Part shown: positions 8,119 through 47,106 of the stretch, in pieces
Layout of the letters: each line of letters opens with the position of its first letter
How positions within the stretch are numbered: the first letter of the stretch is position 1
Assembly: GCA_050288105.1 (NCBI GenBank)
Contig: JBNKDE010000008.1
Coordinates: 22,683 to 86,682 of the forward strand
DNA length: 64,000 bases
Direction of reading: 5' to 3'
DNA from: Gammaproteobacteria bacterium
Lineage (GTDB): Bacteria; Pseudomonadota; Gammaproteobacteria; GCA-001735895
Translations under genes and position numbers: made by a program
Notes under the pieces: generated by a model
The model's database searches: none
What the model was told of the DNA's origin: nothing
The model's input: the letters and a program-made list of their open reading frames with translations, nothing else

Positions 8119-8123
8119 CCGGA

Positions 8124-21000: not shown

Positions 21001-21795
21001 TTATTGGCAATATTCCTGGTACTGCTGCTGCAGTTGCTGCTTTTTTTGCGCTACTTCCTGTTTGCTGAGATAGATGCGCTTTCCGTTTTTGTCCAGATCA
21101 TACCAGCGTACTCTCTGTTCATATTGTGTAATCTGGTCTTTTACCCGGATACATTTCTGCTGAAGTTTTTCATCTTTCTGTTGCTGTTTTAGCTGCTCGT
21201 TGTTCACCTGTTGCTGTTGCTGGCGTTGTTTTTCGTATATAGCCAGAGCACGCGCTACGCGGTCTCTGCCGCTTAAGCCTGTTGATATCTGTTTGGGTGC
21301 CTGCATCTCTTCGGCTTGCTGCTGGGCTTCCGCCTGTTGTTGCTGTTGCTGTTTGGCAATCTGTTGTCGTTGAATATCGAGTTGCTGTTGTTTGAGTTCC
21401 ATTTCTGCCAGCAGCTTCTGCTCCTGCTTAAGACGTTGCAGGCGGTTGCTGGCCTGGGGTAACCACTGGCTGTCGGAATACTCTGCAATAAATGCTTCCA
21501 GCGCCTTGACCTGGTTGGTTTCTATCGCCTGATGATAGGCCAGTTTGTCTCTTTCGTAGATCGCTCTTTCTATCCAGTCCGACTGGGGATGGTCTTTAAT
21601 GAAGCGGTTTAATTCTGTAATACTGTTACTTTGCTGAGCTTTCTGCAGTTCCTGTTGTTCCTGCTGAAGTCGTTCTACTGCCTGTTGCAGGGCGATCTGT
21701 TGCTGGTATTGGGAGTACGCATAATAGCCTGGCAGTGCGATAGCAATAAACACCACGGTTAAGCCGAGTTTTTTCACGTTATGTTCCCTTTGCAT
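21001..21795 (-). CDS. glutamine-rich coiled-coil protein with an N-terminal membrane anchor/signal
   Basis: N-terminal hydrophobic helix (LGLTVVFIAIALPGYYAY), then about 230 aa rich in Q/E/K/R with heptad character and poly-Q runs (QQQQQQ). No catalytic motif. Confidence 0.55.
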   Translation of the reverse strand: MQREHNVKKLGLTVVFIAIALPGYYAYSQYQQQIALQQAVERLQQEQQELQKAQQSNSITELNRFIKDHPQSDWIERAIYERDKLAYHQAIETNQVKALEAFIAEYSDSQWLPQASNRLQRLKQEQKLLAEMELKQQQLDIQRQQIAKQQQQQQAEAQQQAEEMQAPKQISTGLSGRDRVARALAIYEKQRQQQQQVNNEQLKQQQKDEKLQQKCIRVKDQITQYEQRVRWYDLDKNGKRIYLSKQEVAQKKQQLQQQYQEYCQ

Positions 21796-21833: not shown

Positions 21834-22541
21834 TTAAATACCAAGATAGGCTTTCTGTACCTCTGGATTTTGTGTCAGCGCTTCTGCTTTGTCACTAAGT
21901 GTAATGATCCCGTTTTCGATGACATAACCTCTGTGCGCGATCTGTAATGCCTGGTTGGCATTCTGTTCGACCAGGAAGATTGTAGTGTTCTGCTCCTGGT
22001 TGATCATCTTGATAATATCGAATATCTGCTTGATGATCAGCGGTGCCAGCCCCATAGAAGGTTCATCCAGCAGTAACATACGAGGTCTTGCCATTAATGC
22101 ACGGGAAATCGCGAGCATTTGCTGCTCTCCGCCGCTCAGGTTTCCGCCTGACTGGTGTCTACGTTGAGATAGAATAGGAAACAGATCGTATACATAGTCC
22201 AGGTCGGATTTTATACCAGCATGGTCATTGCGTAAAAAAGCGCCTAGATCGAGATTTTCCTGTACGCTCAGGTGGGGAAAGATGTGACGACCTTCGGGTA
22301 CCTGGCTGATACCCAGTCTGACAATCTGATCGGGTGCCAGTTTATGAATAGCTTGACCTTCGAAGGTAATGCGACCTTTACCCGCGGGTACGATGCCACA
22401 AATTGACATCAGCGTGGTACTTTTACCCGCACCATTCGCGCCTATCAGGGTGATGATTTCACCCTCGTTAATGTTCAGAGTAATCCCCTTGAGTGCGGAG
22501 ATATTACCGTAGTAACTATGAACCTTGTGCAGTTCAAGCAT
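21834..22541 (-). CDS. livF: branched-chain amino acid ABC transporter ATP-binding protein
   Basis: Walker A GANGAGKST, the ABC signature LSGGEQQ, Walker B; 235 aa. Confidence 0.85.
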   Translation of the reverse strand: MLELHKVHSYYGNISALKGITLNINEGEIITLIGANGAGKSTTLMSICGIVPAGKGRITFEGQAIHKLAPDQIVRLGISQVPEGRHIFPHLSVQENLDLGAFLRNDHAGIKSDLDYVYDLFPILSQRRHQSGGNLSGGEQQMLAISRALMARPRMLLLDEPSMGLAPLIIKQIFDIIKMINQEQNTTIFLVEQNANQALQIAHRGYVIENGIITLSDKAEALTQNPEVQKAYLGI

Positions 22542-23322
22542 CGGCTTCTTCTCCCAGGTAGGCCTTGATTACCGCCGGGTTTTCGCGAATCTCTTCGGGT
22601 GAGCCGGTGGCAATAAGGTTACCGTAATCCAGTACGTATAATCGGTGTGACAGGTTCATAACCAGCTTCATGTCGTGCTCGATCAGCAGAATAGCCTGTC
22701 CCTCCTGCTGCAATTTAACGATTTGTTCCTCAAGCTGCTGGGTCTCCTGTGGATTCATGCCTGCGGCAGGTTCATCCAGTAGCAGCAGTGCGGGTTCAGT
22801 GGCTAACGCACGTGCAATTTCGAGTCGTCTTTGCTCGCCGTAAGACAGGTTGCTGGCGAGTTCGTTGGCATGTTTTTCCAGCCCCAGCTTGCGTAGCATC
22901 TGGTAGCTGAATTCGACAATCTGCTTTTCTTCACGCACGGTAGAAGGTGGTCTGAAGATGGCACCCAGAATAAACGAGGAGGTACGGCAATGGCGCCCGA
23001 TCATGACGTTTTCAAGTACCGTCATATTGTTAAACAGGCGGATATTCTGGAACGTTCTAGCGAGCCCTTTTTCTGCCACCTGATTGGGTTTTAAACCATT
23101 TAACAGGTAGCTTTTACCGTTTGGGGGATTCAATCTTACCTTGCCCTGGGTCGGCTTGTAGATCCCGGTGATGCAGTTAAAGAAGGTGGTCTTGCCTGCA
23201 CCATTGGGGCCGATCAAGGCGATGATTTCACCACTGTGGACCTGCAGGTTGACATCGTTTACTGCACGTATGCCACCAAAGCTCATACCTAGTCCTTCAA
23301 CATCCAGAATAGGCCTGCTCAT
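22534..23322 (-). CDS. livG: branched-chain amino acid ABC transporter ATP-binding protein
   Basis: Walker A GPNGAGKTT, the ABC signature LSYGEQRRLEIA; 262 aa. Confidence 0.85.
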   Translation of the reverse strand: MSRPILDVEGLGMSFGGIRAVNDVNLQVHSGEIIALIGPNGAGKTTFFNCITGIYKPTQGKVRLNPPNGKSYLLNGLKPNQVAEKGLARTFQNIRLFNNMTVLENVMIGRHCRTSSFILGAIFRPPSTVREEKQIVEFSYQMLRKLGLEKHANELASNLSYGEQRRLEIARALATEPALLLLDEPAAGMNPQETQQLEEQIVKLQQEGQAILLIEHDMKLVMNLSHRLYVLDYGNLIATGSPEEIRENPAVIKAYLGEEADA

Positions 23323-24539
23323 TGGCTTTCTCCTTTATGCGGCCGGTATTGGTAATGTCGGCGTACCTGGCTGACCAGGCCCTGTGGGCGGAATACCATC
23401 ATGCTTACCATGATAATACCGAAAGCCAGCATACGGTAATCAGACAGGGCGCGCAGGTATTCGGGTAACAGGATCAGGAATAGGGCACCCAGAATAACCC
23501 CGAGAATCGACCCCATACCCCCCAGAACAACGATGGCGAGAATGATTGCAGACTCCAGAAAGGTAAAGCTGGATGGGTTAATAAAGGTGGTCTTCGCAGC
23601 GAAGATGACGCCAACCATACCAGCCCAGGTTGCGCCCAGAGCAAAGGCTGTCAGCTTGGTTCGGGTTTTATCTATCCCCATGGCCTGACAGGCAATTTCA
23701 TCTTCGCGTAATGCCAGCCAGGCACGACCCAGGCGTGAGTTCTGTAATCGGTTGACGACGAATATGGTGAAGATCACCATGATGAGCATGAGGTAGTAGA
23801 GATAGCTAATCGACTGATCCAGGTCCAGTTCGATACCAAAAAAGCCAGGACGGTCGATATTGGATATGCCGCTAGGGCCCTGAGAAAACTCATTCCAGTT
23901 TTCAAGGATCAGGCGAATGATTTCTCCAAAGCCGAGCGTGACTATCGCAAGGTAGTCGCCACGCAGCCTTAATACAGGGAAGCCCAGCAAAATACCCAGG
24001 AAAGCGCCGAGTATGGCCCCTATGGGTAATACTACCCAGAAGCCAAGGTCAAAATGCAGGTTTAGCAGAGCATAGCTATAAGCGCCGACGGCATAGAATG
24101 CAACATAGCCAAGGTCGAGTAAGCCCGCAACACCGACAACAATATTTAATCCCAGGCCCAGCACAACATACATCAACGCGGTGACCATCACATTGGTCTG
24201 GTAGGTTGAAAATATCTGTGGAAAAAGTAATGCAAAAGCCATGGTGGCCAGTACGATGGGGTAGAGATAACGTTTTTCGCGTTGTATGGTTTGCAGGATG
24301 CTGAGTTGTTCTGCCTTTTCCAGCGTTCGAGAAACCTGGCGTTTGTGTCGGCGCTCAAAATAAATTCGGCTGGCGATAGACAGGATGAAACTTCCAAAGC
24401 CAACCAGCAACATATTCTGCCAGCGTAGTTCGATGGTCTCTTCCAGAGGGTTAACCCTGATCACCATGATCGGGAAGGTAAGAAACATAAACCAGAGTGA
24501 AACGGCCAGTGAACGTTTGGTTTCCTTGAGCGAAATCAT
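23319..24539 (-). CDS. livM: branched-chain amino acid ABC transporter permease
   Basis: 406-aa polytopic membrane protein of the LivM type with an N-terminal extension; operon position. Confidence 0.8.
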   Translation of the reverse strand: MISLKETKRSLAVSLWFMFLTFPIMVIRVNPLEETIELRWQNMLLVGFGSFILSIASRIYFERRHKRQVSRTLEKAEQLSILQTIQREKRYLYPIVLATMAFALLFPQIFSTYQTNVMVTALMYVVLGLGLNIVVGVAGLLDLGYVAFYAVGAYSYALLNLHFDLGFWVVLPIGAILGAFLGILLGFPVLRLRGDYLAIVTLGFGEIIRLILENWNEFSQGPSGISNIDRPGFFGIELDLDQSISYLYYLMLIMVIFTIFVVNRLQNSRLGRAWLALREDEIACQAMGIDKTRTKLTAFALGATWAGMVGVIFAAKTTFINPSSFTFLESAIILAIVVLGGMGSILGVILGALFLILLPEYLRALSDYRMLAFGIIMVSMMVFRPQGLVSQVRRHYQYRPHKGESQ

Positions 24540-25438
24540 ACCTTCTGAATCTCCGCTTTTCCGAGCAAGCCTGAAGGTTTAAAGATCAGTATTAAAACCA
24601 GCAGTGAAAATGCAAACACGTCTTCATAATCACTGGACACATAGCCGGTAGCAAAGCTTTCTGTCAGACCCAGAACCAGCCCGCCCAGTACGGCACCGGG
24701 AATAGAGCCTATTCCACCCAGTACCGCAGCGGTAAAGGCTTTAATGCCCGCAATAAAACCGATAAAGAAATTGATCTGCCCAATATGAGAGGCAATTAAT
24801 ACACCGCCTATTGCGGCCAGTGAAGAACCGATAATAAAGGTGACAGAGATGATTCTATCCACGTTAATACCTACCAGCATGGCCATGGTACGATCCTGAG
24901 AAGTCGCACGCATCGCTTTACCAAGGCGGGAATAACGAATAAAAAGCGTCAGGATGACCATCACAATCGCAGCGGTGACGATAATCATCATGTCGGTGGT
25001 GCCGACGATGTGCGCGAATGGGTCCATGAATTCAAATTCGGGAATAAGTTCTGGAAATGCCAGGAAATCAGAGGTCTGGGCAAGTAGTACATAATTCTGC
25101 AGGAAAATGGACATACCGATTGCGCTGATCAGGGGGGATAGCCGTGGGGCATGTCTTAAAGGTTTGTAAGCCAGTTTCTCTACCGTGTAACCATAGGCGC
25201 TGGCCCAGATGATTGCAGCGAGGGCGGCTAGAACGGTAATGGCGAGTAGTGGAAAACCCAGTATGCCAAGAACAGAAGCAATGATGTAGGCTGTAAATGC
25301 CCCGATCATATAGATTTCGCCGTGTGCGAAGTTAATCAGTCCAATAATGCCATATACCATGGTGTAACCCAGGGCGATGAGTGCGTAGATGGAACCGCGA
25401 GACAATCCGCTAAATACTAATTCAATAAAATATTCCAT
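24536..25438 (-). CDS. livH: branched-chain amino acid ABC transporter permease
   Basis: 300 aa, about 8 TM, LivH-like. Confidence 0.8.
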   Translation of the reverse strand: MEYFIELVFSGLSRGSIYALIALGYTMVYGIIGLINFAHGEIYMIGAFTAYIIASVLGILGFPLLAITVLAALAAIIWASAYGYTVEKLAYKPLRHAPRLSPLISAIGMSIFLQNYVLLAQTSDFLAFPELIPEFEFMDPFAHIVGTTDMMIIVTAAIVMVILTLFIRYSRLGKAMRATSQDRTMAMLVGINVDRIISVTFIIGSSLAAIGGVLIASHIGQINFFIGFIAGIKAFTAAVLGGIGSIPGAVLGGLVLGLTESFATGYVSSDYEDVFAFSLLVLILIFKPSGLLGKAEIQKV

Positions 25439-25518
25439 CAGAACTTCCAGAATTTAGAAAAGCTTTTAGAACAATAAAAAGCCCAGCACGTATCGTGCTG
25501 GGCTTTGGTTTGGAAATA

Positions 25519-26634
25519 TTATTTCACTTCTACGTAATTGCCGTCTTTAACCTGATACATTGCAAATCCGACACCGATGGCATCACCACGATCATCGAAA
25601 TTGATGTTACCTACAGGAGTGGCAGTTTTATGCTTCTGCAGAGCTGTCCTGATCGCTTCATAGTCAGTGGAGCCAGCCTGATCGATGGCGTTTAAAAGTG
25701 CCAGAGCTGCTGCATAGGCGTTTTCATAGAATGCGCCAGGATCTGATTTGTAGGCTGTCTTGTGTGCTTCAATCGCCGCGGTAGACAGCGGGTTTTTGGA
25801 GTTATCCTGGGGGCCAGTAGCGTATACGCCTTCAGCATATTTGCCGGCTACCTTAATGAAGGTATCATCTTTTACACCGTCATCAGAGATGAAGGGGATA
25901 TCGATACGCTTCTTACGCATCTGAGTAATGATTTTTGAAGCTTCAGGATGATATCCACCGAAAATCACGGCATCAGCTTTGGAGCGCTTGATCTTCTGCA
26001 CAACCGCAGAGTAATCAACCGCGCCTGGGGTTACGCCTTCGTAAAGTACCACTTCGCCCTTGGGGGATTTTTCGATGAAGGCTTTGGCAAATTCAGCCAG
26101 GCCTTTGCCGTAATCACCCTTGTCGTGGATAACTGCGATCTTTTTAAGGCCCAGAGTATCCAGCGCAAATTCAACTTCTTTTGCCGCCTGGGCGTCATCC
26201 GCCGCAATAGTGCGATAGAAGTTTGGATAGTCGCCGCTCTGGGTCAGCGCAGGATTGGTAGCAGAAGGGGACATCACAACGATGTTGGCATTTTTATAGA
26301 TAGGCAGGGCTGCTTTGGTGGCACCAGAACAGATATGCCCGAGGACCACATCTACGCCATCGGACACCAGCTTGGTGGCCGTATTGGTGGCGATTTCAGG
26401 TTTACATACATCGTCTTCGATTAACAGTTCAACCTGCATACCATTAATACCGCCTTTGGCATTGATATCCTTTACCACCAGTTCAGCGGCCTTGATCGTG
26501 GGGATGCCATAGGAAGCAAGATCACCACTGTGTGGTCCAGCTACACCCAGTTTAATGGTGTCTGCCTGTGCAAATCCTGTCAGTCCCGCTGAGACAATCA
26601 GCGTTAAAAGTGAATGTTTAATGGTGTTTCTCAT
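25519..26634 (-). CDS. livK: branched-chain amino acid ABC transporter substrate-binding protein (Leu/Ile/Val-binding family)
   Basis: Signal peptide, type-I periplasmic binding fold, DTIKLGVAGPHSGDLASYG N-terminal motif; 371 aa. Confidence 0.85.
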   Translation of the reverse strand: MRNTIKHSLLTLIVSAGLTGFAQADTIKLGVAGPHSGDLASYGIPTIKAAELVVKDINAKGGINGMQVELLIEDDVCKPEIATNTATKLVSDGVDVVLGHICSGATKAALPIYKNANIVVMSPSATNPALTQSGDYPNFYRTIAADDAQAAKEVEFALDTLGLKKIAVIHDKGDYGKGLAEFAKAFIEKSPKGEVVLYEGVTPGAVDYSAVVQKIKRSKADAVIFGGYHPEASKIITQMRKKRIDIPFISDDGVKDDTFIKVAGKYAEGVYATGPQDNSKNPLSTAAIEAHKTAYKSDPGAFYENAYAAALALLNAIDQAGSTDYEAIRTALQKHKTATPVGNINFDDRGDAIGVGFAMYQVKDGNYVEVK

Positions 26635-26811: not shown

Positions 26812-27810
26812 CTATTGGTTGTTCTCTTCTACCTCATTGTTCTGGTAGTAGTAATCGTATTTCTGCAGCAGGGATTTCATGAAGTTCCAGGCTTCGTTGT
26901 AGGTCAAGCCACTATCCTTGGGGATAATGATTTTAACATACAGCTCCGGGCCTTTTTCCTGCTTGAGTCGGTCCAGCCTGCTTTCAACTTCTGCTAAAGA
27001 AAGGTTCTGATAATTTTTATTGCCAGGCTCTTTAAACCGGTAAACTTCGCCGCCTTGCTGCTTAACATAATAAACTTCGGCAACGTACTTACCCTTGGCA
27101 CTTCGTGCGGGTTTAATCAGCTGGTCATATTTGGATTTGACGACATCATACTCGCCTTTGAGGCTGAGTAGCTGCCGGTTGTATTCGATTTTTTCTTTTT
27201 CCAGCATGTCGATACTGAGACGCTGCTGTTCGGCACTCGCATTCAGCGCCGCTATTTCGGCATTGGCAAATTCCAGCTCCTGTTGTGCGGCTGCAGCCTG
27301 CTGTTTCTGCTGTTCAAGCTGCAGTCTAAGTTCCGCCAGTTGCTGGGCAAACTCTTCAGACTCTGCACTGATTTCATTAATTTTCTGGCGCGCATCTGCC
27401 AGTTCATCGCGCGAACTCTGAATCGTCTGATTCAGTTGTAATTTATCATTTTCCAGTTCATTGATGGCCAGTAAACGCTGTTCGTCACGCTGTTTGGCCT
27501 TGGCCAGCAGTTCTTCCTTTTCCAGTATGCGTAAGCGCAGGATAGAGTTTAGCTGCTCCGCATTGATCAGGCGTTCTTCCAGCGTTGCGTTTTCCTGCGA
27601 GGTGGATTCGATCATTTCCGAAGCGAGTTTTTCGGCTTCTATACTTTGCTGAAGCTCGGCGACCAGTTGCCAGTTGCGCACGATGAGCAGGCTGGTTGCC
27701 AGCAGGAAGATCATTACCACCACCATCATGATGTCGGTAAAAGATGGCCAGAAAGACCCTTCGTTATCGGCTTCTAATGAGTGAGGGCCAATGGTTGGGA
27801 AATTACTCAT
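26812..27810 (-). CDS. ExbD/TolR/MotB-like stator B-subunit N-terminus (TM helix with conserved Asp) fused to an ~200-aa periplasmic coiled coil and a ~100-aa C-terminal domain of unknown fold
   Basis: SFWPSFTDIMMVVVMIFLL resembles the ExbD/TolR/MotB TM with its protonatable Asp. Residues 45-230 are heptad-rich (E/Q/L/A). There is no OmpA or TonB C-terminal motif. Confidence 0.6.
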   Translation of the reverse strand: MSNFPTIGPHSLEADNEGSFWPSFTDIMMVVVMIFLLATSLLIVRNWQLVAELQQSIEAEKLASEMIESTSQENATLEERLINAEQLNSILRLRILEKEELLAKAKQRDEQRLLAINELENDKLQLNQTIQSSRDELADARQKINEISAESEEFAQQLAELRLQLEQQKQQAAAAQQELEFANAEIAALNASAEQQRLSIDMLEKEKIEYNRQLLSLKGEYDVVKSKYDQLIKPARSAKGKYVAEVYYVKQQGGEVYRFKEPGNKNYQNLSLAEVESRLDRLKQEKGPELYVKIIIPKDSGLTYNEAWNFMKSLLQKYDYYYQNNEVEENNQ

Positions 27811-27823
27811 TGTCTAGCTGGGC

Positions 27824-28768
27824 TCAATCCTGACCAGGCGGTGGTGGTGGCAGGCGGAAACCATCACGCAGCAATTTCTTGATACTGACAATATCATCAC
27901 TGAGCTTATTCATCTGCTGTTTATTGCTATTGATTGAAGCCAGCAGGGTGGTAGCGGATGAGTGATAGATTTCCTGCGTTTCATTCATTTTTTCGGTGGC
28001 GCGGATAATGCCTTTGATCAGGCCACTCATCTGGTTGATGATATCTTCCCCGCGTTTAACGAAGCGAGGGATCAGGTAAACGGAAGTCAGGTGTTCAATC
28101 CCGCTCAGTAAATGGGTTTGTACATCCTTAACACGCAGATAGAAATAACCAAATATGACATAGCTGACGATTGCAGTAATCGTGGTGGATAGTGCTGTCG
28201 ACATCCCATGAATAACCAGCCCCATACCATCGAGACCTGTGGAAGCGGTTTCTATCAGGTTGGAAGCACCAATCAACGCGATAGATAAGGATACGATGGT
28301 GCCGAATACCCCGGTCAGGATCAGGATGTTATTGATGAAACGCACGACACCAAGGCGGGTGCCTTCGTCGGCAGTTAACATCGCAGCCAGCGCATTATGG
28401 TTGATTTCGCCATGTGCCGCGTTAATGGTTCTCATAGTGGCATAACGCTTGACAATCAAACTGTGCGCATTCAGGTTTTCTGTGGGATCTTCCCTGATCG
28501 CTTCAACATTTTCTACAAAACCGCTCAGCGCGCTTTCTTCACGTCGATAGCGCAATAACAGCAACAGCAGATTAATAATGCCCAGCGCAAAAATGCCGGC
28601 GATCACGCTATTAATGATAATTCCTGTATTGGTCTGCTGGTTTTCCAGATAAAAATGGTGCAGAAACGAATAGTTGGTAGCAATAGCGATGATCGAAATC
28701 ACCACAACCAGCGCAAACTGGATTAGTATGCGCTGACTGAGCTTGGTAAGCAGGCGGTGCGTGTCCAT
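27824..28768 (-). CDS. MotA/TolQ/ExbB-family proton-channel protein (4 TM, MotA-like topology) with a ~90-aa C-terminal cytoplasmic tail
   Basis: TM3/TM4 motifs ILTGVFGTIVSL and ALSTTITAIVSYVIFGY align with the conserved LGLLGTV and A-L-x-T-x-G segments of the family. A proline-rich C-terminus follows. Confidence 0.65.
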   Translation of the reverse strand: MDTHRLLTKLSQRILIQFALVVVISIIAIATNYSFLHHFYLENQQTNTGIIINSVIAGIFALGIINLLLLLLRYRREESALSGFVENVEAIREDPTENLNAHSLIVKRYATMRTINAAHGEINHNALAAMLTADEGTRLGVVRFINNILILTGVFGTIVSLSIALIGASNLIETASTGLDGMGLVIHGMSTALSTTITAIVSYVIFGYFYLRVKDVQTHLLSGIEHLTSVYLIPRFVKRGEDIINQMSGLIKGIIRATEKMNETQEIYHSSATTLLASINSNKQQMNKLSDDIVSIKKLLRDGFRLPPPPPGQD

Positions 28769-28781
28769 GGAAATCCGTTGA

Positions 28782-29435
28782 TTACTGTTGGAGTAAAGAA
28801 TTGAAACCGCGACTGCGGATCAGGTTGTTGAAATAGGCGCGGTAATAAGCGACAGCACTGTTGCCATTGGTGCCTACATCAAACACCTTCCAGCCACCAG
28901 GTCCCTGCATAAAGCGAAAATCGATACGAATCGGGTAACTGTTGGAAGGAATGACACGTGCAGTCACTATAACTTCGTTATAGCCCATTCTTCTGGGTGG
29001 AAGAAATTCAACCCGGGGTTGTGCGTCGCCGTAGGCAGTGATGATGCGGGCGAATGCTGCAAAAAACATTTTTTTCAGGTTGGACTGAAAGATATATTTC
29101 TGCGCGGAATTCATGCGGTTGTAATGATAACCTGAAGCCCATTCGGCCATTTGCTCAAAATCAAAAAACTGTGACATCTGGCTATCCAGGAAGTTAAGTA
29201 CTTTTTCCGGATTGTCGAATTCGCCACTGTTCAGGTAGTTCTGTAATACCCGTATACCCATTTCCAGTAACTGGGCGGGTGTTTGCTGTGCATAATTTGG
29301 GTAAGGGTTATAGGGCTGGGCGTAACCGTAGCCGGGCACCTGAGCCTGAGTATTCGAATAGGTGAGCATGGTGACGCAGATAATTATTATAGGTGTAAGG
29401 CGTTTCATAAGCTTCTCTTCTAAAGTGAGGTTCAA
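28782..29435 (-). CDS. MlaC/Ttg2D-family periplasmic lipid-binding protein (NTF2-like)
   Basis: Signal peptide. The C-terminal RIDFRFMQGPGGWKVFDVGTNGNSAVAYYRAYFNNLIRSRGFNSLL aligns with E. coli MlaC [47 protein letters not shown]. Confidence 0.65.
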   Translation of the reverse strand: MNLTLEEKLMKRLTPIIIICVTMLTYSNTQAQVPGYGYAQPYNPYPNYAQQTPAQLLEMGIRVLQNYLNSGEFDNPEKVLNFLDSQMSQFFDFEQMAEWASGYHYNRMNSAQKYIFQSNLKKMFFAAFARIITAYGDAQPRVEFLPPRRMGYNEVIVTARVIPSNSYPIRIDFRFMQGPGGWKVFDVGTNGNSAVAYYRAYFNNLIRSRGFNSLLQQ

Positions 29436-29499: not shown

Positions 29500-29586
29500 T
29501 GGTACCGGGGGGGGGACTCGAACCCCCAAGATGTTACCACCAGCGGATTTTGAATCCGCCGCGTCTACCAGTTCCGCCACCCCGGC
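29500..29586 (-). tRNA. tRNA-Leu (anticodon CAA), class II with long variable arm
   Basis: Manual fold on the reverse complement: acceptor GCCGGGG/CCCCGGT (G1-U72), anticodon stem GCGGA/TCCGC with loop TTCAAAA, long variable arm, T-arm GGGGGTTCGAGTCCCCC, ACCA 3' end. Confidence 0.85.
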
Positions 29587-37831: not shown

Positions 37832-37869
37832 ATTGACCTGTGAATGCCCCAAAACACAGGAGATATTTT

Positions 37870-38655
37870 ATGAACCAGGCTCTCTGGATAGCAAAAACCG
37901 GTCTCGACGCCCAACAGACTCGGTTATCGGTTATTTCTAATAACCTTGCCAATGTGAGTACCACCGGCTTTAAGCAAAGCCGCGCCGTATTCGAGGATTT
38001 ACTGTATCAGAATATACGCCAGGCAGGCGGCCAGACCTCACAGGATACGCGCCTGCCTACAGGCCTGTACCTGGGTGCTGGCTCGCGTATTGTAGCTACT
38101 GAAAAGATACATACGCAGGGATCTATCGAAACTACCGGTAACTCGCTGGATGTCGCGATAGACGGTAAAGGTTATTTCCCCATTTTATTGCCTGACGGTA
38201 GCGAAGCCTATACCCGGGATGGTGGCTTCAAGATGTCCGACCAGGGGCAATTAGTGACCTCAAGCGGCTATACCTTGCAGCCCGGCATTACCATACCCAG
38301 TGATACACGGCAGATTACGATCGGTATCGATGGTGTGGTTTCTGTGACTACTCAGGGTAATAGCACCCCGACTGCTGTCGGCAATATCCAGCTGTCAAAC
38401 TTCATTAATCCCATGGGGCTGGAGCCCATTGGTGAAAACCTGTTTGTAGAGTCAGCTTCCAGCGGTGCCGCACAACCCGGCACCCCCGGCTTAACCGGTC
38501 TTGGGACCCTGCGCCAGGGTTCACTGGAAAGTTCCAATGTGAATATCGTTGAAGAAATGGTAGGCATGATTGAAACCCAACGTGCCTATGAAATGAATTC
38601 GCGTGTGATTTCCACCGCCGATGGAATGATGTCGTATCTGAATAACAATATTTAG
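37870..38655 (+). CDS. flgG: flagellar basal-body rod protein FlgG
   Basis: 262 aa, conserved rod N-terminus ([31 protein letters not shown]) and C-terminus ([21 protein letters not shown]). Start at the ATG with a GGAG RBS. Confidence 0.9.
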
Positions 38656-38663
38656 GTGATGAG

Positions 38664-39347
38664 ATGAAACCATTAAACATAATCGTATGTAGCCTGGCGC
38701 TGTTAATCATGCAGGGCTGTGCGAGTACGCGTATCGAGGTGCAACCGGATCCCATGTTTGCGCCTGTAGATCTGAAGGAAGCGAGATTTCAGCCTCAGAA
38801 TAACGGTTCGATTTACCAGCAGGGTAGAGCAGTGCGCCTGTTTGAAGATAGTAAGGCGTTCCGTATTGGCGATCTGCTGAGTATCACGCTTTCAGAGTCC
38901 ACCAATGCATCGAAATCGGCGGCGACTACTACCGCCAAGGATGACAGCGTGAGCATGGGGGCAGGCACCCTGCTGGGTATTACCCCCACCTTGAAGGGTC
39001 AGTCTATTCTGAATAACAGCCTGGAAGGTCAACGAGAATTCACCGGAACTGGCGATAGCGCTCAGAGCAATAGCCTGAGTGGTGAAATCACTGTGATGGT
39101 GGTTGATATTTACCCGAATGGCAATTTGCTGGTACGGGGTGAAAAGATTCTGGGGCTGAACCAGGGATCAGAGTTTATCCGTATCGCCGGCATTGTCCGA
39201 CCACAGGATGTGAGCGCGAATAACGAAGTGCTGTCCGGCAAGCTGGCCAATTCACGTATCTATTATGGTGGCGGCGGTGTTATTGCCGAAGCCAATACCA
39301 AGGGCTGGCTGAGTCGTTTCTTTGATAGCCCTGCGTTTCCTTTCTAG
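38664..39347 (+). CDS. flgH: flagellar L-ring lipoprotein FlgH
   Basis: Lipobox (LIMQGCAS), 227 aa, position. Confidence 0.9.
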   Translation: MKPLNIIVCSLALLIMQGCASTRIEVQPDPMFAPVDLKEARFQPQNNGSIYQQGRAVRLFEDSKAFRIGDLLSITLSESTNASKSAATTTAKDDSVSMGAGTLLGITPTLKGQSILNNSLEGQREFTGTGDSAQSNSLSGEITVMVVDIYPNGNLLVRGEKILGLNQGSEFIRIAGIVRPQDVSANNEVLSGKLANSRIYYGGGGVIAEANTKGWLSRFFDSPAFPF

Positions 39348-39356
39348 GAGGCTGAG

Positions 39357-40460
39357 ATGAAAAAAATCAATTTAATGTTGTTTATTGGCCTGATGCTGAC
39401 TGCGCTTTGCAGTCATGCGGAACGCATCAAGGATCTTACCGAGATTCAGGGTGTGCGCTCCAATCAGCTGGTCGGTTATGGACTGGTGGTGGGTCTGGAT
39501 GGTACGGGTGATCAAACGGCTCAGACGCCTTTTACGGTGCAGAGCCTGAAAAGTATGCTGTCTCAGTACGGCATTACACTGCCAGCGAATGTAAACCCGC
39601 AGGTAAAGAATATCGCTGCTGTCAGTATCCATGCGGATATTCCTCCCTTCGCCAAGATTGGGCAGAAGATCGATGTTACGGTGTCATCGCTGGGTAATGC
39701 AAAAAGCCTGCGTGGTGGCAGCTTGTTGATGACACCTTTGAAAGGTGCCGATGGCCAGATCTATGCGCTCGCTCAGGGTAACCTGATTGTGGGTGGCCTG
39801 GGGGTTGAAGGCGCCGATGGGTCGCGCGTTTCCGTTAATATTCCCAGCGTAGGGCGTATACCAAACGGGGCCTCTATCGAGAAAGAAGTGAGTAACCCCT
39901 TTGCCCTGGGCGACCATATTACGCTGAACCTGAAACGTCCTGACTTCACTACAGCCCAGCGTCTTGCCGATACCATTAACCATGTACTCGGCCCCAACAA
40001 TGCGTTTGCCAAGGACAGTGTAACGGTTGCTATCAACGCGCCCCGTGATATCTCTCAGCGCGTCGGCTTCATGTCATTTGTGGAAAACCTTGAGTTCCAG
40101 CCAGGCGAGGCGCCTGCGAGGGTGATTGTTAACTCACGTACCGGCACCGTGGTGATCGGCAATCATGTGCGTGTTTATTCTGCAGCGGTATCGCACGGCA
40201 ATATGACAGTGACCATTACCAATACCAATCAGGTCAGTCAGCCGGGAGCACTGTCCGAAGGTGAGACAGTACAGAGTGTACAGAGCGACATAGCCGTGAC
40301 CCAGGATAACAGTCGTATGTTCCTGTTCAATACCGGTGTCACGCTGGATCAGATTGTGCGCGCGGTAAACCAGGTCGGTGCTTCTCCGGGTGACCTGGTG
40401 GCCATTCTGGAATCACTAAAGCAAGTTGGCGCGCTTTCTGCAGAGTTAATTGTAATCTAA
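39357..40460 (+). CDS. flgI: flagellar P-ring protein FlgI
   Basis: Signal peptide, 367 aa, highly conserved FlgI blocks ([13 protein letters not shown]). Confidence 0.95.
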
Positions 40461-40484
40461 CTTTTTACGAGATGCGTTTAAGCC

Positions 40485-41525
40485 ATGTTGCCTCCTTCAT
40501 CGACAGACCTGTATATGAATATGAGTCAGTTTTCGGACATGAAACTGGCTGCCAGAGAGCATGATGCGAGCGCCAGCAAGGCCGTGGCGCAGCAGTTTGA
40601 AGGCTTATTAGTACAGATGATGCTTAAGGATATGCGTGCTGCTGCCAAATTTGATGAAGCTCAGCATAGCTCGTATATGGACTTTTATACCGATATGTAC
40701 GATAAGCAGATTTCATTGATGCTGTCACAGAATGGCGGTATCGGGCTGGCCGCATTGCTGCAAAGGCAGCTCGATCCGGGTTCCAGCGGGCGGCAGCAAT
40801 CTGCCGCCATTGACGGCAATGAGTTGCCCGTGTATCGACTCCCAACGCAACAAAGCAGCAGTTGGCCTATCAGCAAGGAAGCAGAGTATTTTCCGTTAAA
40901 TCCTGCGCTCAGAGTGCACCAGTTGCTCGATGCTGTGGCACAGCAAAAAGCGCTTAATCCCTCTAATGCAACGCCCGCCAATAACGCTTTGCAAATGCAG
41001 GCAATCGAACCCTTTTATGGCTGGCAGGAAAAACACTCCTTCGTGCAGGACCTTTGGCCACATGCGCAGCAGGCAGCTACTAAGCTGGGTGTCTCCACCG
41101 AGATTCTGGTCGCACAGGCTGCTCTGGAAACTGGCTGGGGGCAACATGCAATGAAAAAACCGGATGGCAGTATTGCGTTTAATCTATTCGGTATCAAGGC
41201 TGGTGCTGACTGGTCCGGTCAACAGGTAACACAGTCTACGCTGGAATTCAGGCAGGGCGCCATGCAACGCGAGCAGGCGACGTTCCGCGCCTATGATTCG
41301 ATTTCCGAAGCGATGCAGGACTATGTGAATTTCGTGCAGTCCAGCCCGCGCTATCAGCAGGCGCTGGATCACCAGGGCAATGACAGAAACTATATTCAGG
41401 GTTTGCAGCAGGGTGGCTATGCCACTGATCCTCGCTATGCAGACAAGATTATTAATATCCGTGATGGCAAAACGCTCAGCAGCGCGCTGGGATCGTTCAC
41501 GTCATCCACTACAGTGTTGAGCTAG
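40485..41525 (+). CDS. flgJ: flagellar rod-assembly protein/peptidoglycan hydrolase FlgJ
   Basis: N-terminal rod-binding block (AAQQFEGLLVQMMLKDMR) and C-terminal glucosaminidase domain (TGWGQHAMKKPDGSIAFNLFGIKAG). Confidence 0.85.
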   Translation: MLPPSSTDLYMNMSQFSDMKLAAREHDASASKAVAQQFEGLLVQMMLKDMRAAAKFDEAQHSSYMDFYTDMYDKQISLMLSQNGGIGLAALLQRQLDPGSSGRQQSAAIDGNELPVYRLPTQQSSSWPISKEAEYFPLNPALRVHQLLDAVAQQKALNPSNATPANNALQMQAIEPFYGWQEKHSFVQDLWPHAQQAATKLGVSTEILVAQAALETGWGQHAMKKPDGSIAFNLFGIKAGADWSGQQVTQSTLEFRQGAMQREQATFRAYDSISEAMQDYVNFVQSSPRYQQALDHQGNDRNYIQGLQQGGYATDPRYADKIINIRDGKTLSSALGSFTSSTTVLS

Positions 41526-41534
41526 GAGACGGTT

Positions 41535-43445: not shown

Positions 43446-43447
43446 TC

Positions 43448-44659
43448 ATGCGAATTTCAACTACACAGATCTATGGTCAGGGACTGAAGGCTTTTGGTGA
43501 GCAGCAGGCCAAACTGGCTAAACTGCAGCAACAGATCTCTACCGGGCAACGCCTGACCAAGCCCTCCGATGATCCGGCGGCCTCTGCAAGAGTGCTGGAG
43601 CTGGAACAGACTGTCGCTATTAACGAACAATATCAGTCCAATATCAGCCAGGCGCAACATCGCCTGCAGTTGGCGGATACCACGCTCGATTCGATTGAGA
43701 ATATAATGCAACGTGTCAGGGAACTGGTGATCCAGGGAAATAATGCCACCATGAGTGCAGAGTCTCGCGATGCGATAGCCAATGAAATCGACGAGCGGTA
43801 TAAGGAATTGATATCGCTGTCCAATACGACCGATGAAAATGGTGATTACCTGTTTGCCGGGTATCAAAATCAGTCCGTGCCATTTACAGAGCTAACCACG
43901 GGCTCAATCCAGCAGGTGCAGTTTAATGGCGACCAGGGACATCGATATTTTCAGATTAGCCAGAGCCGTCAGATTGATGCAAGCATCAATGGGTCAGAAG
44001 TATTTATGCAGGTGTCCAGCAGCAGTGGCTTAAATGAATTTAGCGCTGCGGGCAATACCGGTACTGGAACTATGGCGGCTGCGCATGTCATTGATCAAAC
44101 GCAATATGTTCCTGGTGATTACCAGATCGTATTCTCCGATCCAGCCGCACCACCTCAAACCTATGACGTGATTGATCTTTCCGGGCCAACTACTATCGTT
44201 GCGGGTGCCATTTATACTGATGGAGACATGATTGATTTCCAGGGTATACGCACGAGTATTACCGGCACCCCGGCAAATGGAGACAGCTTTACCATCAGTT
44301 CGGGTCAGTATCAGGATATTTTCAGTGTTTTAAAAAACACCTCTGAAACGTTACGGGCCTCTGGTTCGAGTGATGTGAGGGCAGCAAATCTGGCGCAGGC
44401 GCTATCGGATATCGATTCAGCGATGACGAACCTTATCGAGAGTCGAACCAAGGTCGGTGGCCGGCTAAATGCGGCTGAAAGCCAGGCAGCGGACAATGAA
44501 GCTTTCATTCTGGCAACCAATGAATCACTAGGGGTGCTGCGTGATACTGATCTCGCTGAAGCCATTAGCCAGTTATCTCTGGAGCAAACGATTCTGGATG
44601 CTGCACAGGCTGTATTTTCACGTATCACCCGTTCTTCTTTGTTCAATTATTTGCGTTGA
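43448..44659 (+). CDS. flgL: flagellar hook-associated protein 3 FlgL
   Basis: Flagellin-like N-terminus (MRISTTQIY) and a C-terminal helical segment; 403 aa. Confidence 0.85.
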   Translation: MRISTTQIYGQGLKAFGEQQAKLAKLQQQISTGQRLTKPSDDPAASARVLELEQTVAINEQYQSNISQAQHRLQLADTTLDSIENIMQRVRELVIQGNNATMSAESRDAIANEIDERYKELISLSNTTDENGDYLFAGYQNQSVPFTELTTGSIQQVQFNGDQGHRYFQISQSRQIDASINGSEVFMQVSSSSGLNEFSAAGNTGTGTMAAAHVIDQTQYVPGDYQIVFSDPAAPPQTYDVIDLSGPTTIVAGAIYTDGDMIDFQGIRTSITGTPANGDSFTISSGQYQDIFSVLKNTSETLRASGSSDVRAANLAQALSDIDSAMTNLIESRTKVGGRLNAAESQAADNEAFILATNESLGVLRDTDLAEAISQLSLEQTILDAAQAVFSRITRSSLFNYLR

Positions 44660-44807
44660 AACAGAGAGCCTGCGACTGCATTATTTGCTAAATTTTGCTT
44701 TAAAGGGCTTTGTTGATGTGCAACTTGCTGATTTTATTGGCTTTAGTGATCAGCAAAGGCTTCGTTCAGGTTTCCATATTTCTTCAATCTTCATCCAAAA
44801 AAAATCC

Positions 44808-44834
44808 TAAAGTATTTTCCCTTGTTGCCGTTAA
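44808..44834 (+). promoter_or_regulatory. sigma-28 (FliA) class III flagellar promoter for fliC
   Basis: TAAAG-N14-GCCGTTAA has one mismatch to the TAAAGTTT-N11-GCCGATAA consensus. It lies about 90 nt upstream of the fliC ATG. Confidence 0.6.
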
Positions 44835-44925
44835 CTACACTGAGAGGGAAAACCAGGCAGCATCGGTGACCCGGAATTTTTAACGTTTGGCGCTGAAAAA
44901 AGCGTGGAATTTAGGAGAGATTACA

Positions 44926-46440: not shown

Positions 46441-46502
46441 TAGAGGTTAGAGGATCGGCTTGGTAATAAAAGCCGGTCCTCTACTCAAAGCGGAGAAGAA
46501 AC

Positions 46503-46925: not shown

Positions 46926-47106
46926 AGGAACTGGTCTGTTTTTTGCAAACTAACTTAAGTACTGACCAGGAGGGAAATGGAGGCATCCATTTCCCTCTGA
47001 TTTCAGGAAAGTGGCTAATTTCCTGAAAACAACCGCAGATGCTGTACATCTGCTATGCTTTTACAAACGATTCAGATTGATTTGATCTGCAAGGTGAGAT
47101 ACAGCA

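What the first reader, a model, noticed from the sequence alone, without database searches (positions are those of the whole stretch)
26812..29435. Uncharacterised stator-like module: MlaC-family lipid-binding protein + MotA/ExbB-like channel + ExbD/MotB-like subunit fused to a long periplasmic coiled coil
Three tightly linked minus-strand genes, with 13- to 14-nt gaps, sit immediately downstream of tRNA-Leu.
- The first is a signal-peptide-bearing MlaC/Ttg2D-like phospholipid-binding protein.
- The second is a 4-TM MotA/TolQ/ExbB-family proton channel.
- The third has an ExbD/TolR/MotB-type N-terminal TM helix with the conserved protonatable Asp (FTDIMMVVVMIFLL). Instead of an OmpA-like or TonB/TolA-type periplasmic domain it carries about 200 aa of heptad-rich coiled coil and a roughly 100-aa C-terminal domain with no recognisable motif.

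A coiled coil of that length would be enough to span the periplasm. I know of no described system that pairs such a proton-channel pair with an MlaC homologue. One hypothesis is a proton-motive-force-driven, envelope-spanning machine that acts on lipids or another outer-membrane cargo, analogous to Tol-Pal or ExbBD-TonB with a different output. An anti-phage Zorya-like role is less likely because no nuclease-type effector is adjacent.
Basis: partly seen in the sequence, partly recalled or inferred. Interest (0 to 1): 0.8.

Follow-up and report, generated by a model that had tools for sequence, protein, structure and literature searches.

The report
Stator-like motor with periplasm-spanning rod
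Two always-paired genes encode an uncharacterised relative of the proton-driven flagellar-stator, Ton/Tol and Zorya motors whose central subunit carries a rigid rod of about 28 nm across the periplasm; in two bacterial lineages it has become linked to a lipid-carrier (MlaC-type) gene, which hints at a proton-powered route for moving lipids between the two membranes.

Summary

- **A (MlaC family):** a secure assignment (Pfam E=6e-26).
- **C (axle-type subunit):** it has a ZorB/MotB-type N-terminal TM helix with an invariant Asp26. A 191-residue coiled coil in one uninterrupted heptad register follows (about 28 nm). It ends in a nearly invariant domain of about 90 aa that is possibly TolR/ExbD-like, which is unproven.

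The universal unit is B+C, adjacent in 84 of 84 loci across marine Gammaproteobacteria and sulfur-oxidising symbionts. It is chromosomal and absent from phage, plasmid and viral collections. No Zorya effectors are nearby.

MlaC is not universal. A dedicated MlaC subfamily is nevertheless linked to B-C in two separate clades, in two different conserved gene orders (A-B-C, and B-C-X-MlaC).

Best reading: a new family of 5:2-type ion-driven motors whose rod carries force to the outer-membrane side of the periplasm, with lipid trafficking as the most likely output. I found no description of it in the literature. I rate it a new variant of a known kind, interest 0.7.

The parts
28782..29408 (-). 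Gene A: a periplasmic MlaC-family lipid-binding protein of 208 aa from the ATG. The mechanical ORF start is the TTG at 29435. It is a lineage-specific partner of the B-C core.
   Evidence: Pfam MlaC E=6.1e-26. PDB MlaC-family matches. RBS and ATG seen directly. The NCBI gene call is 208 aa. A is adjacent to B-C only in one clade.
29268..29339 (-). Tyr/Pro/Gly-rich low-complexity linker at the mature N-terminus of A (VPGYGYAQPYNPYPNYAQQ...). It is the hallmark of this MlaC subfamily.
   Evidence: Comparable aromatic/Gly/Pro-rich segments occur in the A-like proteins of L007, L085, L072, L088 and L056.
28785..29222 (-). MlaC domain of A.
   Evidence: The Pfam PF05494 match covers residues 72-217 of the 217-aa ORF.
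27824..28768 (-). Gene B: the 4-TM MotA/ExbB/TolQ/ZorA-fold channel subunit, 314 aa. It is the presumed pentameric ring of the motor.
28112..28369 (-). B TM3-TM4 core (residues 134-219), with invariant LTGVFGT and STALSTT motifs. It is the presumed ion pathway lining the axle Asp.
   Evidence: This region matches Pfam MotA_ExbB positions 41-120. Invariant columns are listed.
27827..28111 (-). B cytoplasmic helical tail (residues 220-314), ending in the invariant K..LLR(D/E)GFRL motif. It is modular: one unit of about 43 aa is duplicated in 357-aa relatives, and the tail is much longer in a 669-aa relative.
   Evidence: AF2 predicts helices 180-236 and 240-303. Alignment. Autocorrelation peaks at lag 43 in P0075 and lag 53 in P0359. 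P0359 sequence.
26812..27810 (-). Gene C: the axle-type subunit, 332 aa. It consists of a TM helix with Asp26, a long coiled coil and a conserved terminal domain.
   Evidence: Profile match to ZorB chain 8vvn_B, E=6.4e-5, with the Asp aligned. PADLOC ZorB hits reach E=1.3e-6 in relatives. AF2 model. C is adjacent to B in 84 of 84 loci.
27679..27753 (-). C transmembrane helix (residues 20-44) with the invariant FWPxFTD motif. The Asp26 codon is 27733..27735.
   Evidence: F20, W21, P22, F24, T25 and D26 are invariant in 28 of 28 sequences. The motif occurs in all 84 loci. The codon was read directly.
27103..27675 (-). C periplasmic coiled-coil rod (residues 46-236, about 28 nm). It keeps a single heptad register. 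The membrane-proximal third is conserved and the middle is variable.
   Evidence: Period 3.50, power 84 against 10.8+-10.5 in shuffles. LIVMF counts by position mod 7 are 15,5,5,13,4,4,3. AF2 predicts one helix from 25 to 236, with pLDDT above 90 over residues 81-210. Length varies in steps of 7 residues: 60 of 76 sequences fall in one class mod 7, as do 11 of 21 distinct lengths (P about 3e-4).
26836..27102 (-). C terminal domain (residues 237-325), with the nearly invariant motifs KPARSAxGKY, LYVKIIIPxDSGLTYNEAW and YDYYYQ. It is possibly TolR/ExbD-like.

Best explanation
**What it is.** The core is a two-gene, vertically inherited, stator-type ion-driven membrane motor of the MotAB/ExbBD/TolQR/ZorAB kind, presumably B5C2.
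- B is the 4-TM channel subunit. It has a compact cytoplasmic domain and a short, modular helical tail.
- C is the axle subunit. Its TM helix carries the invariant protonatable Asp26.
- C continues as one uninterrupted parallel coiled coil of about 191 residues (about 28 nm, roughly three times the inner-membrane-to-peptidoglycan distance reported for E. coli).
- C ends in a small, almost invariant domain (probably TolR/ExbD-like) that would sit at the outer-membrane side of the periplasm.

**Inferred mechanism.** Proton flow through B past Asp26 drives relative rotation of B5 and C2. The stiff, register-preserving rod carries that torque or force across the periplasm to a partner at the peptidoglycan or outer membrane.

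**Role of the MlaC protein.** A is not a universal component. However, a dedicated MlaC subfamily, marked by a Tyr/Gly/Pro-rich N-terminal linker, has been fixed next to the pair twice: as A-B-C in the window's clade and as B-C-X-MlaC in a distant clade. The most likely output is therefore proton-powered loading or unloading of a soluble lipid carrier, that is, lipid exchange between the two membranes or outer-membrane lipid homeostasis.

**Shown versus inferred.**
- Shown: the folds and motifs, the rod geometry, and the gene linkage.
- Inferred: the 5:2 stoichiometry, rotation, location of the distal domain, and lipid as the cargo.
For: **B and C as motor subunits**
- B has the MotA/ExbB/TolQ/ZorA fold.
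- MotA_ExbB is the top Pfam hit over the same region in 9 of 10 divergent relatives.
- The N-terminus of C aligns to ZorB of the solved Shewanella ZorAB complex with the Asp in register.
- The Asp motif is invariant.
- B and C are adjacent in 84 of 84 loci, separated here by a 13-nt gap.

**The rod**
- The heptad periodicity is sharp and the register is single.
- Length changes are quantised in heptads.
- The rod is about 28 nm long, against an inner-membrane-to-peptidoglycan distance of about 9 nm in E. coli (PMC11946911).

**The terminal domain**
- It is the most conserved part of C outside the TM helix.
- Its best natural structural match is the TolR periplasmic domain.

**Housekeeping character**
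- GC content is native and there are no internal terminators.
- The family is absent from viral contigs, plasmids and phages.
- Flanking genes are housekeeping genes.

**The MlaC link**
- A-B-C is retained throughout one monophyletic clade even where the flanks differ.
- B-C-X-MlaC is retained in a second clade down to 60-65% identity of the MlaC-like protein.
- The MlaC-like proteins involved belong to one subfamily: 95-126 bits to A, against 31 bits for E. coli MlaC.

**Precedent**
- The Tol-Pal motor is reported to be important for outer-membrane lipid homeostasis (abstract of bioRxiv 10.1101/2024.11.27.625625).
Against: - No multimer model or experiment exists, so 5:2 stoichiometry and ion conduction are inferred by homology only.
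- All sequence matches of B and C to known families fall below curated thresholds.
- The B profile finds nothing in PDB by sequence.
- The fold of the terminal domain is unproven: hhalign E=0.24 to 0.6, Foldseek found nothing, and the model confidence is low.
- 66 of the 80 reference-genome loci have no MlaC-like gene within the fetched flanks.
- In Sedimenticola and the Solemya symbiont the A-like gene lies elsewhere.
- Rod length ranges from about 23 to 44 nm across lineages, which fits poorly with a fixed periplasmic span.
- The conserved tip and modular length of the B tail suggest that an output on the cytoplasmic side is equally possible.
- Nothing tested here shows lipid binding or any A-C contact.
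Confidence: 0.5

Rival explanations
1. Zorya-like envelope sensor with a cytoplasmic output. The distal domain of C anchors the axle to the wall or outer membrane, so that B5 and its helical tail rotate. The conserved tail tip then signals to an unlinked cytoplasmic partner for a housekeeping purpose (envelope-stress or periplasm-width sensing), not for moving anything in the periplasm.
For: - By sequence the pair is closest to ZorA/ZorB.
- The B tail is helical and modular, with lengths of 314, 357 and 669 aa, and has an invariant tip. In ZorA the tail is essential for signalling (PMC11946911).
- C has an invariant Phe4 and Gly8 at its N-terminus. In ZorB the N-terminal Met1 and Phe2 plug the tail entrance.
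Against: - No conserved cytoplasmic partner gene is linked.
- The tail here is only about 95 residues, against about 500 in EcZorA.
- A rod three times longer than needed to reach the peptidoglycan, together with the recurrent MlaC linkage, points to a periplasmic output.
Confidence: 0.2
2. B-C is a motor or tether whose function is unrelated to lipids (for example outer-membrane tethering, constriction, or control of envelope spacing, in the manner of Tol-Pal). The MlaC genes are neighbours without functional coupling.
For: - MlaC is missing next to B-C in most lineages.
- The A-like gene is an orphan elsewhere in Sedimenticola and the Solemya symbiont.
- Other neighbours vary with lineage: CBS, CMAS, DUF455, a MOFRL-family gene and Slp.
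Against: - Two independent gene orders, each conserved, involve the same MlaC subfamily.
- The 13-nt gaps in the window indicate co-transcription.
- The few distant hits found for A are from lineages in which B-C is found.
Confidence: 0.22
3. A minimal anti-phage defence system: ZorAB-only, or ZorAB with an unrecognised effector.
For: The only database models that B and C hit at E<1e-3, apart from generic coiled-coil matches for C (for example SMC), are ZorA and ZorB.
Against: - No ZorC, D, E, F or G, and no nuclease, is adjacent in any of 84 loci.
- The genomic context is housekeeping and syntenic.
- There is no GC anomaly.
- The family is absent from phage, plasmid and viral-contig collections.
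- It is compact and well conserved, and is also present in obligate symbionts.
- C lacks the defining peptidoglycan-binding domain of ZorB.
Confidence: 0.04
4. Not an active motor. B-C would be a degenerate stator homologue serving as a static inner-membrane-anchored scaffold or spacer, a molecular ruler comparable to Lpp.
For: - Sequence similarity to active motors is weak.
- The heptad-quantised rod length resembles that of ruler proteins.
Against: - The Asp and the surrounding FWPxFTD motif are invariant, as are the B TM3/TM4 Gly/Thr/Ser motifs, over more than 55% sequence divergence. This argues for a retained ion pathway.
Confidence: 0.08

Closest known systems
ZorAB, the core of the Zorya anti-phage systems (PDB 8qyd, 8vvn)
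   Same: - It is the closest relative by sequence for both subunits.
- The Asp-bearing axle helix is shared.
- Both have a C-terminal cytoplasmic helical tail of variable length on the A subunit.
- In both, the periplasmic part of the axle continues from the TM helix with no flexible plug or linker.
   Different: - C has no peptidoglycan-binding (OmpA-like) domain. It has a 28-nm coiled coil and a small unrelated terminal domain instead.
- The B tail is about 95 aa, against about 500 aa in EcZorA.
- B has four TM helices, whereas EcZorA is described with three.
- There are no ZorC-G effectors, and the locus is neither in a defence island nor mobile.
ExbB-ExbD-TonB and TolQ-TolR-TolA (Ton and Tol-Pal motors)
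   Same: - The terminal domain of C best matches the TolR periplasmic domain.
- The functional logic is shared: the proton-motive force at the inner membrane is transmitted across the periplasm by an elongated element.
- Tol-Pal is implicated in outer-membrane lipid homeostasis.
   Different: - In Ton and Tol the periplasm-spanning element is a third protein, TonB or TolA. Here the rod is part of the Asp-bearing axle subunit itself, and no TonB- or TolA-like gene is linked.
- The rod is a canonical heptad coiled coil.
- There are no TolB, Pal or TonB-dependent receptor neighbours.
GldLM/PorLM, the gliding and type IX secretion motor
   Same: The architecture is analogous: a stator-type ring around a dimeric subunit that itself extends across the periplasm to act at the outer membrane. 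This comparison rests on general knowledge and on the review PMC9389320, listed but not read.
   Different: - No sequence or fold relationship to GldM was detected. GldM is built of globular domains, not a coiled coil.
- The taxa differ (Bacteroidota against Gammaproteobacteria).
- No T9SS genes are nearby.
Mla pathway (MlaC with MlaFEDB and MlaA)
   Same: A is a true MlaC-family periplasmic lipid-binding protein.
   Different: - No mlaD, mlaE, mlaF, mlaB or mlaA gene is adjacent.
- A belongs to a divergent subfamily with a Tyr/Gly/Pro-rich N-terminal linker.
- Its operon partner is a proton-channel pair instead of an ABC transporter.
TolQ-like motors whose axle subunit carries a von Willebrand A (vWA) domain, described in PMC12204202
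   Same: They are a precedent for TolQ-like pentamers whose Asp-bearing axle helix is fused to a non-canonical periplasmic output domain.
   Different: The output domain there is a vWA fold. Here it is a long coiled coil with a small alpha/beta domain. That paper does not use the word 'coiled' anywhere in its main text.

Membership tests
MotA/TolQ/ExbB proton-channel family (Pfam PF01618) | The sequence scores above the curated Pfam gathering threshold. | tested here: not met
   The window's B scores 12.9 bits against a cutoff of 22.9 (E=0.092). Ten divergent relatives score at most 21.7 bits. MotA_ExbB is a leading hit over the same region in 9 of the 10.
MotA/TolQ/ExbB proton-channel family (Pfam PF01618) | Characteristic helical fold of the A subunit. 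| tested here: met
   [not shown]
MotA/TolQ/ExbB proton-channel family (Pfam PF01618) | The gene is adjacent to a gene for a single-TM partner carrying a conserved Asp. | tested here: met
   B and C are adjacent in 84 of 84 loci. Asp26 is invariant.
MotA/TolQ/ExbB proton-channel family (Pfam PF01618) | 5:2 assembly, with polar residues of the last two TM helices contacting the axle Asp. | not testable with these tools
   Only monomer prediction was available. The invariant LTGVFGT (TM3) and STALSTT (TM4) motifs are compatible with this feature, but their positions were not verified structurally.
MotB/ExbD/TolR/ZorB axle subunits | N-terminal single TM helix with an invariant acidic residue near its cytoplasmic end. 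| tested here: met
   The profile alignment to ZorB 8vvn_B (E=6.4e-5) places FWPSFTD on YWMSFSD. PADLOC ZorB1, ZorB2 and ZorB3 hits reach E=1.3e-6 in relatives.
MotB/ExbD/TolR/ZorB axle subunits | Periplasmic OmpA-like peptidoglycan-binding domain (MotB, ZorB). | tested here: not met
   No OmpA or MotB_plug hit in Pfam, NCBIfam, PADLOC or PDB for the C-terminal 120 residues.
MotB/ExbD/TolR/ZorB axle subunits | Periplasmic ExbD/TolR-type alpha/beta domain. | tested here: inconclusive
   [not shown]
Zorya defence system | Linked effector genes (ZorC/D, ZorE or ZorF/G). | tested here: not met
   No gene other than B and C is conserved across loci. Protein A has no PADLOC hits, and neither B nor C hits any ZorC-ZorG model.
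Zorya defence system | Long ZorA tail and a peptidoglycan-binding ZorB. | tested here: not met
   The tail is about 95 aa, against residues 223-729 in EcZorA. There is no peptidoglycan-binding domain.
Zorya defence system | Patchy, island-associated or mobile distribution. | tested here: not met
   The flanks are syntenic housekeeping genes. GC content is native. There are no relatives in viral contigs, plasmids or phages.
MlaC/Ttg2D family (Pfam PF05494) | The sequence scores above the curated threshold and has homology to solved MlaC structures. | tested here: met
   91.6 bits against a cutoff of 26. PDB matches: 8dte, 2qgu, 5uwa.
Mla phospholipid transport system | Operon or functional partnership with the MlaFEDB ABC transporter. 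| tested here: not met
   No MCE, permease or ATPase mla genes lie next to A here or in related loci. Presence elsewhere in the genome could not be tested.
Mla phospholipid transport system | Binding of phospholipid by the MlaC-like protein. | not testable with these tools
   This needs biochemistry or a confident structural model with a ligand pocket.

The most novel reading that the evidence does not exclude
B-C is a previously undescribed class of proton-driven rotary motor in which the Asp-bearing axle is itself a rigid, periplasm-spanning coiled-coil shaft. Together with a dedicated MlaC-type carrier, it would form a proton-motive-force-powered intermembrane lipid transport or outer-membrane lipid-homeostasis machine. 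That would be a way of energising lipid transport distinct from the ATP-driven Mla system.
Probability: 0.22. Interest if true: 0.88.

Novelty: new variant of a known kind. Interest (0 to 1): 0.7.

Why it matters
How Gram-negative bacteria power processes at the outer membrane, which has no energy source of its own, is a central question in envelope biology. Phospholipid traffic between the membranes is a notable case.

All well-understood solutions use a stator-type motor plus a separate spanning protein (TonB, TolA or GldM), an ATP-driven bridge, or a shuttle. This family would add a design in which the motor's own axle is a heptad-exact coiled-coil shaft.

Its repeated genetic coupling to a specialised MlaC-type lipid carrier gives a concrete, testable hypothesis for proton-powered lipid exchange. 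The family is widespread in marine Gammaproteobacteria and in chemosynthetic animal symbionts, so it may be part of the basic envelope physiology of ecologically important but poorly studied bacteria.

The quantised variation in rod length also offers a natural experiment on how shaft length relates to periplasm width.

Tried and rejected
1. **Sequence assignment of B to a solved structure.** The B profile against PDB gave no relevant hit, even at E<=10.
2. **Assignment of the terminal domain of C.**
   - PDB profile search: best hit is the TesA thioesterase at E=0.12, which is not credible.
   - Pfam on 38 members found nothing consistent.
   - hhalign against E. coli ExbD and TolR, and against a 3-sequence profile, gave E=0.24 to 0.61. 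Both matched the one ExbD-like ORF found in the loci, which gives them some support.
   - Foldseek against PDB gave nothing below E=0.33.
3. **P0359 (669 aa) as a B-C fusion.** Rejected. It is a B protein with a long repeat tail.
4. **Other universally conserved neighbours.** None found. CBS, CMAS, an MR_MLE-family gene, DUF455, a MOFRL-family gene, Slp and an FAD_binding_4-family gene are all lineage-specific.
5. **Genomic island at tRNA-Leu.** Rejected. GC content is native, and the queA-tgt-yajC-secDF flank is syntenic across the clade.
6. **Defence or mobile element.** Rejected.
7. **Precomputed Pfam labels on some C homologues.** Re-scanning four of them against Pfam gave only generic coiled-coil matches, such as ATG16 and CENP-F_leu_zip.
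8. **AFDB50 fold search.** Unavailable.
9. **Literature.** Five searches found no paper that links MlaC to stator proteins or describes a coiled-coil MotB/ExbD-like axle.
10. **NCBIfam PRK09039.** This "peptidoglycan-binding protein" model matched C residues 19-191 weakly (E=0.005). I kept it only as a lead to other MotB-like proteins with coiled coils and did not follow it up.

Full report
**1. The observation**

The window carries three co-directional minus-strand ORFs:
- A at 28782..29435;
- B at 27824..28768;
- C at 26812..27810.

tRNA-Leu(CAA) lies just upstream at 29500..29586. Both intergenic gaps are exactly 13 nt. A good RBS precedes the ATG at 29408, so A is most likely 208 aa (MKRL...), as in the NCBI gene call of the identical locus. 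Base composition matches the flanks, and there are no promoter-like or convincing terminator-like sites between the genes.

**2. What the three proteins are**

*Protein A* is a secure MlaC-family protein.
- Pfam PF05494 gives E=6e-26.
- It matches solved MlaC-like structures, including E. coli MlaC.

*Protein B* has no above-threshold sequence match.
- Pfam MotA_ExbB scores 12.9 bits against a cutoff of 22.9. PADLOC ZorA2 gives E=7e-4. The B profile finds nothing in PDB.
- Nine of ten divergent family members have MotA_ExbB as a leading Pfam hit over the same TM3-TM4 region, at E=2e-4 to 0.02.
- By the positive-inside rule, B has four TM helices with both termini in the cytoplasm.
- TM3 (LTGVFGT) and TM4 (STALSTT) are invariant.

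*Protein C* is an axle-type subunit.
- A profile of C matches ZorB of the solved Shewanella type I ZorAB complex (8vvn_B, E=6e-5). FWPSFTD aligns on YWMSFSD, so Asp26 is in register with the essential Asp.
- Divergent C proteins hit ZorB models down to E=1e-6.
- The motif is invariant in every homologue examined.

**3. Anatomy of C**

AF2 predicts one helix from residue 25 to 236, followed by a small alpha/beta domain.

Evidence that residues 46-236 form a canonical coiled coil:
- The hydrophobicity spectrum peaks at exactly 3.50 residues. Its power is 84, against 10.8+-10.5 for shuffles, and 0 of 300 shuffles reach it.
- Hydrophobic residues concentrate at two positions of a single heptad frame across all 191 residues.

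Evidence from length variation across 76 homologues:
- The distance from the TM motif to the C-terminal YDYY motif ranges from 270 to 414 residues.
- 60 of 76 sequences, and 11 of 21 distinct lengths, fall in one class modulo 7 (P about 3e-4).
- Single-heptad steps argue for a parallel rod that preserves its register, not a hairpin.

At 0.1485 nm per residue the rod in the window is about 28 nm long, and across the family it ranges from about 23 to 44 nm. This compares with an inner-membrane-to-peptidoglycan distance of about 9 nm in E. coli (PMC11946911).

The terminal domain:
- It is nearly invariant, with the motifs KPARSAxGKY, LYVKIIIPxDSGLTYNEAW and YDYYYQ.
- I guessed from its pattern that it is ExbD/TolR-like.
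- Sequence tests did not confirm this. The Pfam ExbD model is hit by 1 of 38 members, and hhalign is colinear but gives E=0.24 to 0.6.
- Foldseek found nothing.
- The model is of low confidence there, so this remains a concordant lead and not a result.

**4. Anatomy of the B tail**

After TM4, B has about 95 cytoplasmic residues, mostly one long helix, ending in an invariant LLR(D/E)GFRL tip.

The tail is modular:
- The 357-aa relatives carry a clean 43-aa tandem duplication.
- One 669-aa relative carries about 370 extra residues of 53-aa repeats.

This mirrors the variable ZorA tail, which is essential for Zorya signalling.

**5. Distribution and neighbourhood**

*Size and host range of the family*
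- B has 3102 homologues and C has 1727 in the 5.8-billion-protein collection, all unnamed or "hypothetical".
- An exhaustive profile search of 1.84 billion representatives finds only 511 proteins at E<=1e-3, almost all 300-350 aa. The family is compact.
- A scan of one genome per species returned at least 180 carriers.
- Nearly all carriers are marine Gammaproteobacteria. They include Cellvibrionaceae, Thiotrichaceae, Chromatiaceae, Sedimenticola and Thiodiazotropha, and symbionts of Solemya, Olavius and Escarpia.

*The conserved unit*
- In all 84 loci examined, B is immediately followed by C.
- No other gene is universally linked. CBS, a CMAS-family methyltransferase, DUF455, a MOFRL-family gene and Slp each mark particular lineages.
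- The family is absent from 2.9 million viral contigs, 72,556 plasmids and 50,697 phage genomes.
- The unit is therefore a chromosomal, vertically inherited two-gene module and not a defence island.

**6. The MlaC question**

*Adjacency statistics*
- Only 11 of the 80 reference-genome loci have A directly upstream of B.
- On a B phylogeny, those loci, the window's own locus and two extra loci found through A form one monophyletic clade.
- That clade keeps A-B-C throughout, even where the flanking genes differ completely.

*A second linkage*
- Three loci of a distant subclade have an MlaC-like gene 0.8-3.7 kb downstream of C.
- A metagenome scan with the L056 copy showed the order B-C-X-MlaC in every contig long enough to show it. 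These are L092-L094, L100 and L101, with partial evidence in five more.
- In those contigs the MlaC-like protein has diverged to 60-65% identity.
- X is a 180-aa secreted protein with no Pfam match.

*One subfamily*
- The MlaC-like proteins involved score 95-126 bits against A, compared with 31 bits for E. coli MlaC.
- They share a Tyr/Gly/Pro-rich low-complexity linker at the mature N-terminus.

*Counter-evidence*
- In Sedimenticola and the Solemya symbiont the subfamily member sits elsewhere, next to a retropepsin-like protease gene.

*Conclusion*
- MlaC is not part of the universal core.
- Even so, two independent and individually conserved gene orders make a functional connection likely.

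**7. Mechanism**

*Shown:* homology of B and C to the two subunits of stator-type motors; the invariant Asp; a stiff register-preserving rod; a conserved distal domain; strict B-C pairing; and recurrent MlaC linkage.

*Inferred:*
- B5C2 stoichiometry and proton-driven relative rotation.
- The rod places the distal domain at the outer-membrane side of the periplasm and transmits torque or force there.
- In the linked lineages, and perhaps all of them, the output is loading or unloading of the MlaC-type carrier.

The Tol-Pal motor's reported role in outer-membrane lipid homeostasis is a precedent (bioRxiv 10.1101/2024.11.27.625625, abstract).

The main rival is a Zorya-like arrangement in which the anchored axle lets B5 and its tail rotate to signal into the cytoplasm. 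The conserved tail tip keeps this open.

**8. Comparison with known systems and novelty**

- By sequence the pair is nearest to ZorAB. It fails three defining Zorya features: a peptidoglycan-binding ZorB, a long tail, and linked effectors.
- By fold and logic it resembles ExbBD-TonB and TolQRA. The difference is that the spanning element is fused into the axle subunit.
- By architecture it is analogous to GldLM.
- A recent survey describes other TolQ-like motors with unconventional Asp-bearing axle proteins (fused to a vWA domain), but nothing with a coiled coil (PMC12204202).
- Five literature searches found no description of this family, nor of any MlaC-stator pairing.

I classify it as a new variant of a known kind.

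**9. Limits**

- There is no multimer prediction and no experimental data.
- Complete genomes were not available to test co-occurrence.
- The signal peptide and membrane topology are judged by inspection only.
- The organism is an uncultured gammaproteobacterial MAG lineage.

Noticed in passing
window 37840-49149 (+): A flagellar gene cluster lies about 8 kb from the A-B-C operon. By Pfam it contains rod protein FlgG-like, FlgH (L-ring), FlgI (P-ring), FlgJ, FlgK, an FlgL-like protein, flagellin and FliD. The organism is therefore probably motile. No flagellar genes flank B-C in other lineages, so I treat this as coincidental.
   Followed up: partly
L056 7987-8529; also L092-L094, L097, L100-L102 and L104-L106: A conserved 180-aa secreted, Cys-containing protein ('X') with no Pfam match always sits between C and the MlaC-like gene in one lineage. 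It is a candidate extra component of the system.
   Followed up: partly
window 29268-29339 (A) and 26836-26853 (the C-terminus of C): The mature N-terminus of this MlaC subfamily is a Tyr/Gly/Pro-rich low-complexity segment (GYGYAQPYNPYPNY). C ends in an invariant Tyr-rich YDYYYQ. Whether these aromatic-rich ends interact is pure speculation.
   Followed up: no
P0359 (669 aa): This B-family member has a cytoplasmic tail extended by about 370 residues of 53-aa coiled-coil repeats. The 357-aa relatives have one extra 43-aa module. Tail length is evolutionarily tunable, as it is in ZorA.
   Followed up: partly
L088/L089 (Sedimenticola) 8001-9313; L090/L091 (Solemya velum symbiont) 8001-9377: Where the A-like MlaC gene is not next to B-C, it is an orphan followed by a retropepsin-like aspartic protease gene (Pfam Asp_protease_2), with an HU-family gene beyond that. 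It is not part of an mlaFEDCB operon.
   Followed up: no
17 loci, e.g. L038 3152-4435 (-), L001 6230-7450 (-): A CMAS-family (cyclopropane-fatty-acyl-phospholipid synthase-like) methyltransferase gene lies divergently just upstream of B in 14 loci of the lineages that lack MlaC, and downstream of C in 4 (Pfam E=7e-95). It is another lipid-related neighbour, but it may simply reflect inherited synteny.
   Followed up: partly
window 21834-26634 (-): A complete branched-chain-amino-acid-type ABC transporter operon lies directly downstream of C after a 177-nt gap with no recognisable terminator. It comprises a periplasmic binding protein, two permeases and two ATPases. Read-through transcription from A-B-C is possible.
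   Followed up: no
window 21001-21795 (-): A 264-aa ORF following the ABC transporter genes has no Pfam match at E<=1e-5. The corresponding gene in the identical NCBI locus (258 aa) also has no Pfam hit.
   Followed up: no
L016, L022, L032, L057: Contigs carrying typical gammaproteobacterial B-C pairs (58-59% identical to the window's B) sit in MAGs labelled Acidimicrobiia, Urechidicola, Polaribacter and Haliangium. They are most likely mis-binned contigs and not evidence of a wider host range.
   Followed up: no
window 27799-27801 and 27787-27789 (C residues Phe4 and Gly8): The short cytoplasmic N-terminus of C has an invariant Phe4 and Gly8. In ZorB the N-terminal Met1 and Phe2 plug the entrance of the ZorA tail, so this may be an analogous contact with the B tail.
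   Followed up: no
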